64,000 nucleotides of DNA from a virus. The position numbers and the translations under genes were made by a program. This document shows, one piece after another, positions 36,143 to 40,245 of this stretch (the stretch's first letter is position 1; every line of letters begins with the position of its first letter). Location: IMG/VR virus record IMGVR_UViG_3300009129_001089; one strand, given 5' to 3'. The notes beneath the pieces are model-generated. The model saw only the letters and a list, made by a program, of their open reading frames with translations, was not told where the DNA came from and searched no databases.

Positions 36143-36718
36143 TTAATTATTTATATTATTAAAAACTGTTTTTTTCATTAAAAGCCTGCATATGATGTTT
36201 ATTCGCATGGAAAAGTATATATGACTAGGTCCTTTTCCATAATGTAATATACTTCCGTCTATGACAATTGCTCTATTATATTTTGGAATAAAAACTTTAC
36301 CTGTATACTCATCATCTGTTAATAAAATGGTTTCTCCTCCCCATGACGGAGCCCATTTCTTTTCCATAAGTACAGGATATATAAAAGAATATTCTGTATA
36401 ATCATCTACGTTTTCTACTGTATTTCCTAATAATACACCCAATTCTGCTTTATTTGATTTATCAAGATGTGGTGTACTGTCCAATCCTTTTGTTTGGCCG
36501 TTAGCAAATATAGATGAAATATAAACATCATCCCATAAGGCATGAACTTTATCTTCAAATAAATTCCAGATAGGTGTATGTTTTAAAGTGGATTTCCAAA
36601 AAGGGGGGCAAATGTCATCGGGCTTATTTCCATAAACCCAATGAGAAGTTTTAAAATATTCTATAACATCTGTTGCTTGTGATTCAGATAATAAATCATC
36701 TAGTATTTTGTATTGCAA
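36143..36718 (-). CDS. 2OG-Fe(II) oxygenase
   Basis: NGQT, HLD, W..SWGGET, ILHYG, R. Confidence 0.85.
   Translation of the reverse strand: MQYKILDDLLSESQATDVIEYFKTSHWVYGNKPDDICPPFWKSTLKHTPIWNLFEDKVHALWDDVYISSIFANGQTKGLDSTPHLDKSNKAELGVLLGNTVENVDDYTEYSFIYPVLMEKKWAPSWGGETILLTDDEYTGKVFIPKYNRAIVIDGSILHYGKGPSHIYFSMRINIICRLLMKKTVFNNINN
36148..36155 (-). promoter_or_regulatory. T4-type late promoter motif
   Basis: TATAAATA ~28 nt upstream of the holin-like gene. Confidence 0.55.
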
Positions 36719-37152
36719 TAGTCTCTCTTGTATATATCTATATGTGGTGCCGTTGCCACTCTACCTGTTTTCTTATTATAAAAATGAAGTTGCATTAAAT
36801 ACACAGGAATTTCATAATGCGGAGGACAATCCCAATCTATCACATTATTTTTATCTTGAACATAATGGGCTAACTCATGTACAAGATCTGCTTGATATTC
36901 TACAATTGAATAATCGTTGAATTTCATATAAATCACACCTCCATAATAAAATCCTCGTATTTCTGTAGTTCCTTGGGCCAATGAACCATTACGTTTTTCA
37001 AATTCTTTTAGTAATTTTCTTTCCGACATCATTACTATTTTAGGTACTGGTAAATCAAAACCCATATTACAAAAATTTTGTGATTCATGGACCCCTGGTA
37101 CATTGCAGTTTGCCTGCATCCACATCATTATTCCAATTGCTAGTGATTTCAT
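36700..37152 (-). CDS. Putative zincin metallopeptidase
   Basis: GFY, HELAHYVQ, downstream E. Confidence 0.65.
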   Translation of the reverse strand: MKSLAIGIMMWMQANCNVPGVHESQNFCNMGFDLPVPKIVMMSERKLLKEFEKRNGSLAQGTTEIRGFYYGGVIYMKFNDYSIVEYQADLVHELAHYVQDKNNVIDWDCPPHYEIPVYLMQLHFYNKKTGRVATAPHIDIYKRDYCNTKY

Positions 37153-37184
37153 GTTATTTTCTCTATATTAATGTTACTGGAAAG

Positions 37185-37386
37185 GAATAGGGCGAATGAA
37201 GTTTTACCAACTTGTTCAACATGCAATAAACAAAATGCAACAAACATTGACCGGCCTGGGAGCAACTCATCAACAAACACATCAAAGTTTTTCTTATCCC
37301 AGGAGCAATCCTTCTGTCGTAAAGTTCATCCATTGTTGCCACCAATTTGGTGTAGTAGTCGATGCCACTCCGTTCGCCCAGCCGAC
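37185..37386 (-). ncRNA. Candidate structured ncRNA with 7-nt repeats
   Basis: GC-enriched intergenic segment; nested stems 37190-96/37373-79, ~37195-211/37316-30, 37255-61/37297-303; heptamer array 37212-37246. Confidence 0.6.
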
Positions 37387-37950
37387 TCAAAGTAGTCCCT
37401 CATCGCTGAGTAACTGCTCCTCATCAGCAGAAAGTTCTATGGTTCGCTTAACATTTACTTCAAGAATTACATCATTAAGATCTTGAAAATTCTTTTTAAG
37501 AGTTTTAACTGTTTGTTTAAACTCTTTGATGTCGTCTTTATCAAAGACATTAGTACTAAAAGAATCTCTACCGTACCTAGATTCTTCGCCTCGTTCTTTA
37601 AGTTTCTCTATTCGTTGCCTAACTTCAAATAAGTCCGGTCGAGGTTTTCGTTCACATAAATTAGTATAAAGATTAATACATGCTTTAATGCGTTCTTGTT
37701 CTGCAAGCATTTTATTAACATCCCATTTGGCGTTAACTATTCCGGTTTTTGCTCGCAATGAATACAATACACTTAATAGATTTTGTTTATAAACTATGTT
37801 GTCTGTAACTTCTTTAAGTTGAGTTTCAATGACCTGTTTAGGATCATTGTATTCATTTATTTCAATGTCTGTATCTATCTCAATAGCATGAACTCGTTGA
37901 AATAGTTCTTTTTGAATTGCTGATGATTTTCTAAGATTGATTTTTGTCAT
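37387..37950 (-). CDS. Coiled-coil protein, DIP1984/DUF6847-like pattern
   Basis: INLRKS..IQ, LR..G.VN, RYG, LKK...LND.I..VN...IEL; all-helical; family similarity from memory only. Confidence 0.55.
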   Translation of the reverse strand: MTKINLRKSSAIQKELFQRVHAIEIDTDIEINEYNDPKQVIETQLKEVTDNIVYKQNLLSVLYSLRAKTGIVNAKWDVNKMLAEQERIKACINLYTNLCERKPRPDLFEVRQRIEKLKERGEESRYGRDSFSTNVFDKDDIKEFKQTVKTLKKNFQDLNDVILEVNVKRTIELSADEEQLLSDEGLL

Positions 37951-38068
37951 TTTGTTTCTCCAGTATTAGCCTAATCTTTTCTTTAGTAGCCTGAATATCT
38001 TGTCTAACAATTATTCGTTCTGACATGATTTCCTGTCTAAAAAGTTCTTTTTCTAACTCTTTTAAACT

Positions 38069-38097
38069 ATTATACAGGAATTCTAGTTCATTGTCAA
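38069..38097 (-). promoter_or_regulatory. Consensus sigma70 early promoter
   Basis: TTGACA-17 bp-TATAAT. Confidence 0.8.
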
Positions 38098-38106
38098 CCA
38101 TTTTCT

Positions 38107-38283
38107 TCAATAATGTACTCGTCTTATAAAGGTTTCATTATAATGGCATCGAGGACACATTTGTCCTGCACCTTCAATGTAACCCAATCTGCTATCAATA
38201 TGATCGCTTGTTTTATACTTTGTTTCTTTACCACAACTAACACATAATTCTACTTCTTCTTCTTCCGTACTTGAACTATCCAT
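38107..38283 (-). CDS. Small zinc-finger protein (58 aa)
   Basis: Manual translation CVSC...YIEGAGQMCPRC. Confidence 0.65.
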   Translation of the reverse strand: MDSSSTEEEEVELCVSCGKETKYKTSDHIDSRLGYIEGAGQMCPRCHYNETFIRRVHY

Positions 38284-39279: not shown

Positions 39280-40245
39280 TTATTTTAATTTGGCCTCAAA
39301 TTCTCTTAAACGCCTATAAACACTCATTAATTCAATAATAGTAGGCCATGCTTTTAATAGATATTGCATCGATCCTTCTACTCTACCAAATGCTCTTATT
39401 ATTTGTTGCATTACACCTAGAGTCATTACTCCTGCAACTATTGCTGGTGCTAGGAATACATAAGCGGATAATACATTTGCTTGTAAGTAAGCCATTCGAC
39501 CAATATTAAAATATAGATAACGTATATAACTTAAAAAATGAATTTTACGAACATCATCAAAGAATTCTTCTATTTTCTTTGGTCTAACAGTTCCATCATC
39601 TTCTGCAATAACAAGTATTTTTCTATATGCCGCTTCTTTTGCTTGTATATCATATTCTATACCAACTAAACGCAATATCCACCCTAATCCAATTAAAAAG
39701 GCAGTACCACCTAATGTCCAAAGTAACGCACCTGCAATCAATCCATATTCCCAATCACCAAAAAAGAATATTGGAATACCCAATGATAATCCAAATAATA
39801 TAGGAACAAACTGAACTAAAACCATAACTGATTCGATTAAAGATGTTCCTAAACTTTCCATTATACGACTAAATTTAATTGTATCTTCTTGAACTCTTTG
39901 CGATGCACCTTCTATTTTTCTGGCTTTGTCATACACACTATGATACCATTCAACCATTGCTGTACGCCATCTAAACAAATAGTGAGCTGTAAAAAAACTT
40001 ATTACAACATAGAGTCCAACATATATTCCTGCTAGTGTAATAAATGACAATAAACTTGCAAAATATTCTTCTATTGTAATTGCATTTGGTGTAGCAAGTG
40101 CTTTTTGAATCATATCATAAAATTGACCAAACCATTCATTTATTTTTACATCAATCTTTACTTGAACCCAAAGTGATCCTAAAATAATTATTGAGCCAAG
40201 CCAAGACCATAACAACCATTTTTTATTTAAAAAAAATCTAAACAT
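39280..40245 (-). CDS. SbmA/BacA-like peptide transporter
   Basis: INEWFGQFYDMIQ, FRWRTAM, IEGASQRVQEDT, EAAYRK..V..ED. Confidence 0.88.
   Translation of the reverse strand: MFRFFLNKKWLLWSWLGSIIILGSLWVQVKIDVKINEWFGQFYDMIQKALATPNAITIEEYFASLLSFITLAGIYVGLYVVISFFTAHYLFRWRTAMVEWYHSVYDKARKIEGASQRVQEDTIKFSRIMESLGTSLIESVMVLVQFVPILFGLSLGIPIFFFGDWEYGLIAGALLWTLGGTAFLIGLGWILRLVGIEYDIQAKEAAYRKILVIAEDDGTVRPKKIEEFFDDVRKIHFLSYIRYLYFNIGRMAYLQANVLSAYVFLAPAIVAGVMTLGVMQQIIRAFGRVEGSMQYLLKAWPTIIELMSVYRRLREFEAKLK

What the first reader, a model, noticed from the sequence alone, without database searches (positions are those of the whole stretch)
37185..37950. Coiled-coil protein gene followed directly by a structured ncRNA carrying 7-nt repeats: candidate novel RNA-protein system
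Seen: right after the TGA of the 187-aa helical ORF lies ~200 nt of GC-enriched DNA in an otherwise gapless genome. It folds into nested stems: closing GGGCGAA/TTCGCCC (37190-96 with 37373-79), an imperfect long stem (ATGAAGTTTTACCAAC 37196-211 with GTCGTAAAGTTCAT 37316-29) and a perfect CCTGGGA/TCCCAGG stem (37255-61 with 37297-303). The unpaired parts hold a 7-nt periodic array (transcript: UGUUUGU UGCAUUU UGUUUAU UGCAUGU UGAACAA, 37212-37246) and a looser second copy in the 37262-37290 loop. A consensus sigma70 promoter (38069-38097) lies upstream. Inference: the protein resembles the DIP1984/DUF6847 family (from memory) and may oligomerise on the heptamers, one subunit per repeat. That would make it a ribonucleoprotein, a type III-like toxin-antitoxin pair or an early host-takeover/anti-defence module. 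I recognise no known RNA family here.
Basis: partly seen in the sequence, partly recalled or inferred. Interest (0 to 1): 0.88.

Follow-up and report, generated by a model that had tools for sequence, protein, structure and literature searches.

The report
Phage UUG-heptad RNA with partner protein
Right behind a small helical-protein gene, this marine phage encodes a real, folded non-coding RNA of about 200 bases with a UUG every seventh base; the gene-plus-RNA pair recurs from ocean phages to Caulobacter jumbo phages, matches no catalogued family, and probably forms a protein-RNA particle of unknown function.

Summary
Window 37182-37383 (- strand) is a GC-enriched, non-coding, structured RNA gene directly after the 187-aa ORF. 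In 30+ related loci the gap is kept. Its helices stay paired in 99% of cells (at most 50% when slid), and 7 pairs show compensatory changes. The 75-aa ORF breaks in most relatives. The best-conserved feature is a row of N4-UUG heptads plus an invariant UGYUUGUUGAU hairpin loop. The row recurs behind homologs of only 25-48% identity, including Caulobacter phage CcrColossus gp272 and Brevundimonas jumbo phages. A near-consensus sigma70 promoter precedes the gene almost everywhere. The protein has a DUF6847/DIP1984-like fold, with no HMM-level membership, and is predicted to form a homodimer. It belongs to a phage-restricted family of more than 1000 clusters that usually sits inside tRNA arrays, sometimes beside GOLLD RNA. 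There is no Rfam, Pfam or PADLOC match, and I found no paper. Best reading (about 0.5): an early-expressed RNA-protein particle in which protein dimers read the UUG row. Binding, expression and function are untested. Type III toxin-antitoxin and VIPR membership tests fail. This scan has noted similar helical-protein plus heptad-RNA pairs on other genomes; this is the short UUG variant.

The parts
38069..38097 (-). Consensus sigma70-type promoter (TTGACA, 17 nt, TATAAT) driving the unit
   Evidence: 12/12 match. An 11-12/12 match lies 50-190 nt upstream of the homologous gene in nearly all related loci.
37931..38026 (-). Short leader ORF (31 aa from the ATG at 38026; 59 aa if read from the TTG at 38110, which would contain the promoter). 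It overlaps the start of the 187-aa gene.
   Evidence: ORF list and sequence. Gene callers placed 57-60-aa ORFs at the same position in related contigs. Function unknown.
37387..37950 (-). 187-aa all-helical protein with a DUF6847/DIP1984-like fold plus a C-terminal extension; predicted homodimer
   Evidence: AF2 pLDDT 90.5. Top PDB hit is 3kdq. BFVD and Atlas relatives. Family of 1055 clusters. Dimer ipSAE 0.68 against a best control of 0.00.
37182..37383 (-). UUG-heptad non-coding RNA (about 200 nt), full model match
   Evidence: Covariance model R1 scores 181.6 bits; single copy in the window and in the 110-kb record. Alignments A1, A2 and A6.
37373..37379 (-). P1 closing stem, 5' strand (GGGCGAA); pairs with 37190-37196
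   Evidence: GC/AU compensatory change at two pairs; 100% of cells paired. Group B uses GGCGGAUG/CAUCCGCC instead.
37190..37196 (-). P1 closing stem, 3' strand (UUCGCCC), followed by a pyrimidine/U-rich tract
   Evidence: The U-tract after P1 is clearer in relatives.
37358..37362 (-). P2, 5' strand; pairs with 37207-37211
   Evidence: Two pairs have changes on both sides (CG/UA, UA/CG); 100% paired.
37297..37303 (-). P3 hairpin, 5' strand (CCUGGGA); pairs with 37255-37261
   Evidence: Compensatory changes in group A. Entirely different complementary arms in groups B, L042, L045 and L049.
37269..37279 (-). Invariant P3-loop motif UGYUUGUUGAU
   Evidence: Zero entropy at 8 of 11 positions in group A. 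Conserved in group B.
37217..37251 (-). Row of five N4-(U/A)UG heptads (GUCAAUG UUUGUUG CAUUUUG UUUAUUG CAUGUUG). The second may pair with ACGACAG at 37314-37319 (P4).
   Evidence: Heptad positions 5-7 carry 1.0-1.25 bits and positions 1-4 at most 0.21 bits over 21 lineages. Exactly six perfect heptads in L042, L045 (CcrColossus), L049 and L138.

Best explanation
Window 37182-37383 (- strand) encodes a stable, structured RNA of about 200 nt. It is very likely transcribed early, together with the preceding 187-aa gene, from the conserved sigma70 consensus promoter, and it ends at the closing stem plus U/pyrimidine tract. The closed multi-helix fold (P1, P2, a variable hairpin, P4, P3) displays two single-stranded elements: the invariant UGYUUGUUGAU loop and a row of four to six N4-UUG heptads. 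I infer that the RNA and the upstream protein work together as a ribonucleoprotein, with homodimers of the DUF6847-like helical protein docking on UUG triplets set 7 nt apart. This would resemble how HutP reads UAG-N4-UAG or how TRAP reads GAG repeats. In relatives the pair belongs to the tRNA and stable-RNA clusters of large virulent phages, so its role is probably in RNA- or tRNA-centred host takeover or in conflict with defences or rival phages. Shown: the RNA gene, its structure, the heptad row, the gene linkage and the promoter. Inferred: co-transcription, the RNA 3' end, protein-RNA binding and the biological role.
For: GC island. The 227-273-nt gap is kept behind every close homolog. 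The gap DNA is more conserved than the protein, and its indels are not multiples of three. Helices: 99.3% of cells paired against at most 49.7% when slid, with 7 pairs compensatory and 11 in the RNAalifold run. Group B, with different helix sequences, folds into the same architecture and is found by the group A model at E 3e-10 to 2e-4. The heptad row is significant and is the best-conserved feature. It recurs behind homologs of 25-48% identity in a genome of about 60% GC (CcrColossus gp272), in Brevundimonas phage Kabachok, and in L042, L049 and L138. The gene downstream of the RNA differs among relatives (three or more kinds), so the RNA travels with the upstream gene. In a pattern scan of IMG/VR, the only genuine RNAs found lay 112-116 nt behind a family gene. 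The promoter is conserved. A symmetric homodimer is predicted: ipSAE 0.68, best of 3 controls 0.00, contacts agree in at least 96%, partner pLDDT at least 88. That mark was reached by 20 of 30 solved homo-pairs and 1 of 23 single chains. No Rfam match.
Against: No expression data for the RNA. The single-sequence fold is unremarkable (z = -1.49). The protein has no recognised RNA-binding domain and a pI of 5.7. Of the 80 loci kept from the wider protein family, most lack a UUG row: 36 carry a different covarying RNA ('class II'), 19 a tRNA directly downstream, and 18 something else. In L048/L050 a tRNA sits between the gene and a UUG-type RNA, and class II can lie upstream of the gene. Adjacency could therefore reflect shared residence in stable-RNA clusters rather than physical partnership. 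Part of the row may be base-paired (P4).
Confidence: 0.5

Rival explanations
1. The RNA is an independent stable RNA of the phage tRNA/stable-RNA cluster, like GOLLD, ROOL or the T4 species C/D RNAs. Its UUG row binds a host factor such as Hfq, S1, a cold-shock protein or a tRNA-directed nuclease, acting as a sponge or decoy. The neighbouring protein acts on something else, such as tRNA.
For: 75 of 80 wider-family loci have tRNAs within 1.5 kb, with a median of 5. GOLLD RNA lies beside the gene in L113 and L117. Other family members are followed by a different RNA or by a tRNA. A tRNA separates the gene and the RNA in L048/L050. Polynucleotide kinase/phosphatase-like genes lie near L042.
Against: Immediate adjacency (the RNA starts about 8 nt after the stop codon) survives where all other synteny is lost, including in this window, which is outside any tRNA array. 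No genuine copy was found away from the gene.
Confidence: 0.22
2. A cis-acting 3' element of the early transcript: a large structured terminator, a stabiliser, or an insulator between an early unit and the next (late) gene, with no trans function.
For: A GC-rich closing stem followed by a U-tract in most relatives. A canonical terminator follows the element in L042. TAAATA-like motifs lie between the RNA and the next gene in group B.
Against: A terminator needs neither about 170 nt of covarying internal helices, nor an invariant loop, nor a phased UUG row conserved across a wide range of GC content. No terminator-like site is scored in the window.
Confidence: 0.12
3. A VIPR-like guide: the constant UUG triplets are held by the protein and the variable N4 blocks read a nucleic-acid target through a non-contiguous code.
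For: Formal likeness to vrRNAs: constant triplet plus variable bases, a structured remainder, phage-encoded, next to its protein (bioRxiv 10.64898/2026.04.26.720920).
Against: The protein is all-helical, not a RAMP. Units are 7 nt and number 4-6, not 5 nt and 9-16. The N4 positions are less variable than other unpaired positions (entropy 0.54 against 0.78 bits). One RNA per genome. No target in the 110-kb record beyond the locus itself.
Confidence: 0.05
4. A type III-like toxin-antitoxin pair: the protein is a toxin and the RNA its antitoxin.
For: A protein gene adjacent to a repeat-bearing RNA in a phage.
Against: In ToxIN-type systems (established knowledge) the RNA precedes the toxin, has 34-36-nt repeats, and the toxin is an endoribonuclease. 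Here the order is reversed, the units are 7 nt, the protein is a helical bundle, and there is no PADLOC match. The family is almost absent from cellular genomes: 3 hits in 185,579 species.
Confidence: 0.03
5. The region codes for the 75-aa ORF (37163-37390, - strand), or is a DNA-level element such as an origin, iterons or a packaging site.
For: The ORF is open in the window. Short direct repeats are typical of origins.
Against: The frame stays open (75-77 aa) only in the window, L018 and the L005/L025 subgroup; elsewhere the longest open stretch is 33-61 aa. Indels are not multiples of three. No Pfam or PHROG match. Many G-U pairs fit only the sense strand as RNA. A 7-bp phase does not fit duplex-DNA binding (inference).
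Confidence: 0.03

Closest known systems
HutP-hut mRNA and TRAP-trp leader (Bacillus), from established knowledge
   Same: A homo-oligomeric protein reads identical triplets placed at a fixed short spacing on single-stranded RNA. HutP reads UAG separated by 4 nt, which is the same 7-nt period.
   Different: Those are cellular cis-regulatory leaders controlled by a ligand-bound beta-rich ring protein. Here there is a phage gene pair, an all-helical dimer, UUG triplets, and a closed 200-nt RNA downstream of the gene. No binding has been shown.
VIPR systems: Vipr protein plus vrRNA (bioRxiv 10.64898/2026.04.26.720920)
   Same: Phage-encoded protein with an adjacent small RNA made of short tandem units (constant triplet plus variable bases), joined to a conserved structured part; a demonstrated RNP.
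   Different: Vipr is a RAMP/RRM protein. The units are YNNGG (5 nt, 9-16 copies) with hypervariable NN, and there are often several vrRNAs. Here the fold is helical, the units are 7 nt (4-6 copies), the variable bases are not hypervariable, and there is a single RNA.
DUF6847 / DIP1984 family (Pfam PF20935; PDB 3kdq, function unknown)
   Same: Same helical fold: 3kdq is the top PDB match (Foldseek E 5e-3; VIA Z 10.3, 141 residues, rmsd 7.8). An Atlas cluster in which 19% of members carry DUF6847 matches at TM 0.69/0.84 with rmsd 2.0.
   Different: No HMM match for the window protein. 3 of 15 relatives reach only E 0.005, under the cut-off. The window protein is about 40 residues longer. The family has no known function, so the likeness explains nothing yet.
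GOLLD and ROOL RNAs (Rfam RF02032 and related; large orphan phage RNAs near tRNA genes)
   Same: Orphan structured RNAs of phages that live in or beside tRNA arrays. GOLLD lies within about 1 kb of homologs of this protein in L113 and L117.
   Different: They are 400-800 nt and form RNA-only cages (PMC12286853). There is no covariance-model match here, the size is about 200 nt, and GOLLD is not described with a heptad row or a fixed protein partner.
Helical-protein plus heptad-repeat RNA pairs noted earlier in this scan (some partly catalogued as RAGATH-27, RF03100)
   Same: A small DUF6847-like helical protein gene followed directly by a closed RNA with a row of 7-nt units, often among tRNA genes. 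One note (e1-5704674) describes a UG-every-seventh-base RNA in a freshwater jumbo phage.
   Different: Those RNAs are 300-500 nt with about 12-15 units, often A-rich, and pseudoknots. This one is about 200 nt with 4-6 UUG units and no supported pseudoknot. There is no RF03100 match in my loci. Phage T5 gave no match to my protein profile, PF20935 or RF03100. The notes are unchecked AI leads.

Membership tests
DUF6847 / DIP1984 (PF20935) | Profile HMM match at or above the curated cut-off (27 bits) | tested here: not met
   Window protein: no PF20935 hit at E up to 10. 3 of 15 close relatives hit with a best E of 0.0053, below the cut-off.
DUF6847 / DIP1984 (PF20935) | Shared three-dimensional fold with the solved member 3kdq and with predicted DUF6847 models | tested here: met
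   3kdq ranks first in both PDB searches. Atlas DUF6847-bearing cluster: TM 0.69 by query and 0.84 by target, 147 residues, rmsd 2.0.
Type III toxin-antitoxin (ToxIN/CptIN/TenpIN) | RNA antitoxin of tandem repeats of about 34-36 nt encoded upstream of the toxin gene | tested here: not met
   The RNA lies downstream of the gene, the units are 7 nt, and there are no long tandem repeats.
Type III toxin-antitoxin (ToxIN/CptIN/TenpIN) | Toxin of the ToxN/AbiQ endoribonuclease type, recognisable by defence-system profiles | tested here: not met
   All-helical model. No PADLOC, Pfam or NCBIfam match.
VIPR (Vipr + vrRNA) | RAMP/RRM-fold protein with G-loop and thumb | tested here: not met
   The model is helices plus two short strands; no RAMP stands among the fold-search rows shown. 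Definition taken.
VIPR (Vipr + vrRNA) | 9-16 YNNGG units with hypervariable NN | tested here: not met
   4-6 N4-UUG units; N4 entropy 0.54 bits against 0.78 for other unpaired columns.
HutP/TRAP-type triplet-reading regulators | Identical triplets at fixed spacing on single-stranded RNA | tested here: met
   UUG at a 7-nt period, conserved over 21 lineages. This is a working likeness only.
HutP/TRAP-type triplet-reading regulators | HutP or TRAP protein family; RNA is the leader of the regulated operon | tested here: not met
   No Pfam match. The RNA is 3' of its partner gene, and the gene after it varies.
Any Rfam 15 family (including GOLLD, ROOL, RAGATH-27) | Covariance-model match at the gathering score | tested here: not met
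   No match overlapping the RNA except one far below its gathering score (PISRT1, opposite strand, 19.9 bits against a gathering score of 70, E 4.3). None in the distant loci.
Helical-protein + heptad-repeat RNA pair (this scan's recurring, unpublished class) | DUF6847-like gene immediately followed by a closed RNA bearing a phased 7-nt row | tested here: met
Helical-protein + heptad-repeat RNA pair (this scan's recurring, unpublished class) | Residence in tRNA gene arrays; pseudoknotted RNA | tested here: inconclusive
   tRNA arrays surround 75 of 80 wider-family loci but not this window's copy; the nearest tRNA is 3.3 kb away. A candidate pseudoknot was not supported across relatives.

The most novel reading that the evidence does not exclude
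A widespread, undescribed kind of phage ribonucleoprotein. Dimers of a DUF6847-like helical protein line up on a phased N4-UUG row of a dedicated, early-expressed small RNA. The particle acts in the tRNA-centred arms race: as a decoy or inhibitor of a host RNA- or tRNA-targeting defence, as an organiser of phage tRNA maturation, or, least likely, as a reader of targets through the variable N4 blocks by a non-contiguous code on a non-RAMP scaffold.
Probability: 0.35. Interest if true: 0.88.

Novelty: categorically new. Interest (0 to 1): 0.78.

Why it matters
Large virulent phages carry tRNA arrays and orphan RNAs (GOLLD, ROOL) whose roles are a long-standing open question. Here, a phage-restricted protein family of more than 1000 clusters has a dedicated, structurally conserved RNA with a strikingly simple phased motif. 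It gives a concrete, testable handle on that question. Cultured systems exist (Caulobacter phages CcrColossus and CcrPW, and Brevundimonas jumbo phages). The motif can be mutated cleanly by changing the triplets or their spacing, and the protein is small and confidently modelled. If the pair is an RNP, it would be a new way for a protein to read RNA periodically, and possibly a new counter-defence or translation-takeover device. If it is not, the RNA is still a new, widely distributed phage RNA family that deserves an Rfam entry.

Tried and rejected
1. Single-sequence folding as evidence of structure: z = -1.49, not significant.
2. Rfam at the gathering and E-value thresholds on the window and 21 related loci: only tRNAs, GOLLD and noise.
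3. Phage GenBank collection with the window DNA and protein: no match. Only a distant homolog as query reached cultured phages.
4. Expression: the only metatranscriptome holders (two studies, each filed twice) gave single low-depth contigs at 36764-36980 and 37439-37620. These are coding parts; nothing was laid on the RNA, so this says nothing about its expression.
5. IMG/VR scan for six TTG at 7-nt spacing: dominated by simple tandem repeats and an unrelated NNGCTTG array class. Only 1 of 80 loci was a family locus, so the bare motif is not specific.
6. VIPR-style target search with the N4 blocks at skips of 0-3 in the 110-kb record: only the locus itself.
8. Phage T5, named in earlier scan notes: no match to PF20935, RF03100 or my family profile.
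9. Sequence search of the PDB with the family profile: nothing meaningful; Cmr5 at E 0.22.
The narrower one found 3 loci in 185,579 species.
11. Literature searches for DUF6847/DIP1984 and heptad or phage RNA terms: no description of this pair.

Full report
**What is in the window.** All genes here lie on the - strand.
- A 12/12 sigma70 consensus promoter sits at 38097-38069.
- A short ORF follows, then a 187-aa ORF at 37950-37387.
- A 234-nt stretch with no convincing ORF comes next, and then a 150-aa gene starts at 37152.
- GC in that stretch reaches 0.49, against 0.28-0.35 on either side.
- ARAGORN and Rfam find only the nine tRNAs of the window. Even at E up to 10, no Rfam family matches the stretch meaningfully.
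- Folded alone, the stretch is not more stable than shuffles (z = -1.49). The case therefore rests on comparison with relatives.

**Comparative evidence that it is a structured RNA.**
- The 187-aa protein has marine metagenomic homologs of 98% to 47% identity. Contigs for these, 24 further metagenome loci and four IMG/VR loci at 48% identity all keep a gap of 227-273 nt directly after the gene.
- The gap DNA aligns end to end, with many invariant columns and indels that are not multiples of three.
- The 75-aa ORF that overlaps it stays open only in the window's nearest relative and one subgroup. Elsewhere the longest open stretch is 33-61 aa. It has no Pfam or PHROG match.
- RNAalifold gives a closed architecture in which 11 of 35 pairs show compensatory change.
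- On a MAFFT alignment of 14 distinct sequences, 99.3% of cells are paired, against 31-50% when the 3' partners are slid. Seven pairs change on both sides.
- The 48%-identity clade (group B) uses different helix sequences: GGCGGAUG/CAUCCGCC for P1, an AAGAGGCU/AGCC-UCUUU P2, and unrelated P3 arms. It folds into the same plan.
- A covariance model built from group A alone finds group B at E 3e-10 to 2e-4. It finds a single copy in the window.

**The heptad row.**
- Between P3/P4 and P2' lies a single-stranded tract in which UUG recurs every 7 nt.
- Over 21 lineages, heptad positions 5-7 carry 1.0-1.25 bits and positions 1-4 at most 0.21 bits. The observed register score is reached by 2 of 500 shuffles of the window, and by 0 of 500 in each of four relatives.
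- The P3 loop carries an invariant UGYUUGUUGAU.
- The row is the deepest-conserved feature. It reappears, with exactly six perfect heptads followed by UCC, behind homologs that share only 25-35% identity. These are L042/L043, L049, L138, and gp272 of the cultured Caulobacter phage CcrColossus, whose sequence around the row is GC-rich. A degenerate YUG version follows the homolog in Brevundimonas phage Kabachok.
- The N4 positions are not hypervariable: entropy is 0.54 bits against 0.78 for other unpaired columns.

**Linkage to the protein gene.**
- The gene after the RNA differs among relatives: an HExxH-like protein, a holin-like protein, or others. The gene before it is always the helical protein.
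- A specific pattern scan of IMG/VR returned 55 stretches. Only three were genuine RNAs, and each lay 112-116 nt behind a family gene.
- An 11-12/12 sigma70 promoter lies 50-190 nt upstream of the gene in nearly every locus. This argues for strong early co-transcription.

**The protein.**
- There is no Pfam, NCBIfam or PADLOC match, and only a weak PHROG hit.
- A profile search of 1.8 billion representatives finds 1055 clusters, all about 185-191 aa.
- The AF2 model (pLDDT 90.5) is a helical bundle closed by two short strands.
- Its best PDB match in both searches is 3kdq, an uncharacterised Corynebacterium diphtheriae protein.
- BFVD and Atlas searches return uncharacterised proteins of Caudovirales, CcrColossus, Vibrio and Erwinia phages and giant viruses. 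They also return a DUF6847-bearing cluster at TM 0.69/0.84.
- Three of 15 relatives touch PF20935 at E 0.005 or weaker.
- A symmetric homodimer is predicted: ipSAE 0.68, best of three controls 0.00, contacts agree in at least 96%, partner pLDDT at least 88. That mark was reached by 20 of 30 solved homo-pairs and 1 of 23 single chains.
- The family is nearly absent from cellular genomes: 3 loci in 185,579 species.

**Wider context.**
- 344 IMG/VR loci encode family members. Of the 80 kept, 75 have tRNAs within 1.5 kb (median 5), and GOLLD RNA lies beside the gene in two.
- Downstream of the gene, 36 loci carry a different RNA of about 220 nt ('class II'), in which 20 of 35 predicted pairs are compensatory. 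Nineteen carry a tRNA, seven or more carry UUG-type RNAs, and the rest carry other sequence.
- Class II can also sit upstream of the gene, and a tRNA can separate the gene from a UUG-type RNA.
- This weakens a strict one-protein-one-RNA reading. It places the whole family in the stable-RNA clusters of large phages.

**Comparison with known systems.**
- Type III toxin-antitoxin features are not met.
- The VIPR preprint describes a phage protein plus a tandem-unit guide RNA, a close formal analogue. However, its protein fold (RAMP), unit (YNNGG), copy number and hypervariability all differ from what is seen here. A target search with the N4 blocks found only the locus itself.
- HutP and TRAP are the nearest mechanistic analogies (from established knowledge).
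- Literature searches found no description of this pair.
- Earlier notes of this scan report similar helical-protein plus heptad-RNA pairs on at least eight other genomes. I used them as leads. I confirmed the tRNA-cluster link on my own loci. I could not reproduce the link to T5 with my profile, PF20935 or RF03100.

**Verdict.** This is a genuine, uncatalogued structured RNA with a phased UUG row, genetically tied to a DUF6847-like, probably dimeric phage protein and expressed from a strong early promoter. A ribonucleoprotein is the best-supported reading (about 0.5). Expression, binding and function remain to be shown.

Noticed in passing
L064:1037-1262, L068:837-1062, L076:2074-2299 and 10 more related loci (alignment A10): A second, different conserved RNA of about 220 nt ('class II') follows most wider-family homologs. 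It starts UAACAGACCCCGG and has the core GGACAGRGUAAC...CUCAGUCUAGGGC...GCUAGACAC. 20 of 35 predicted pairs are compensatory, and there is no Rfam match. In L048, L050, L108 and L109 its core lies upstream of the gene.
   Followed up: partly
L113:2946-3409 and L117:1-461: GOLLD RNA (RF02032, 205 and 189 bits) lies within about 1 kb of homologs of the 187-aa protein, inside dense tRNA arrays. The protein family may be a regular neighbour of GOLLD.
   Followed up: no
L127-L206 (for example L127, L129, L137, L148): Many IMG/VR contigs of 4-6 kb carry one or two long arrays of NNGCUUG heptads (7-12 units, about 0.8-1 kb apart). They are unrelated to this protein family and I cannot explain them.
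   Followed up: no
window 39280-40245 (-): The phage encodes a full-length SbmA/BacA-like inner-membrane transporter (PF05992, E 2.9e-134). This is an unusual auxiliary gene for a virus.
   Followed up: no
window 36700-37152 (-): The gene after the RNA encodes a 150-aa protein with an HELAH motif and a weak metalloprotease PHROG hit (phrog_87, E 0.006). It is replaced by other genes in some relatives.
   Followed up: partly
window 38024-38110 (-): The consensus promoter lies inside the 59-aa ORF as called from its TTG start. A 31-aa ORF with its own AGGAAA ribosome-binding site starts at the ATG at 38026 and overlaps the start of the 187-aa gene. It may be a translated leader.
   Followed up: no
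L245 and L246 (Arenicellales chromosomes CP179197, CP179198): These are the only complete cellular chromosomes among 185,579 species that encode a family member (35-37% identity). They are presumably prophages; I did not examine the context.
   Followed up: no
L042:7456-8410: Near a distant homolog lie adjacent genes for an AAA_33/KTI12-like kinase and a HAD/PNKP-like phosphatase. This is reminiscent of tRNA-repair modules and fits an RNA-centred neighbourhood.
   Followed up: no
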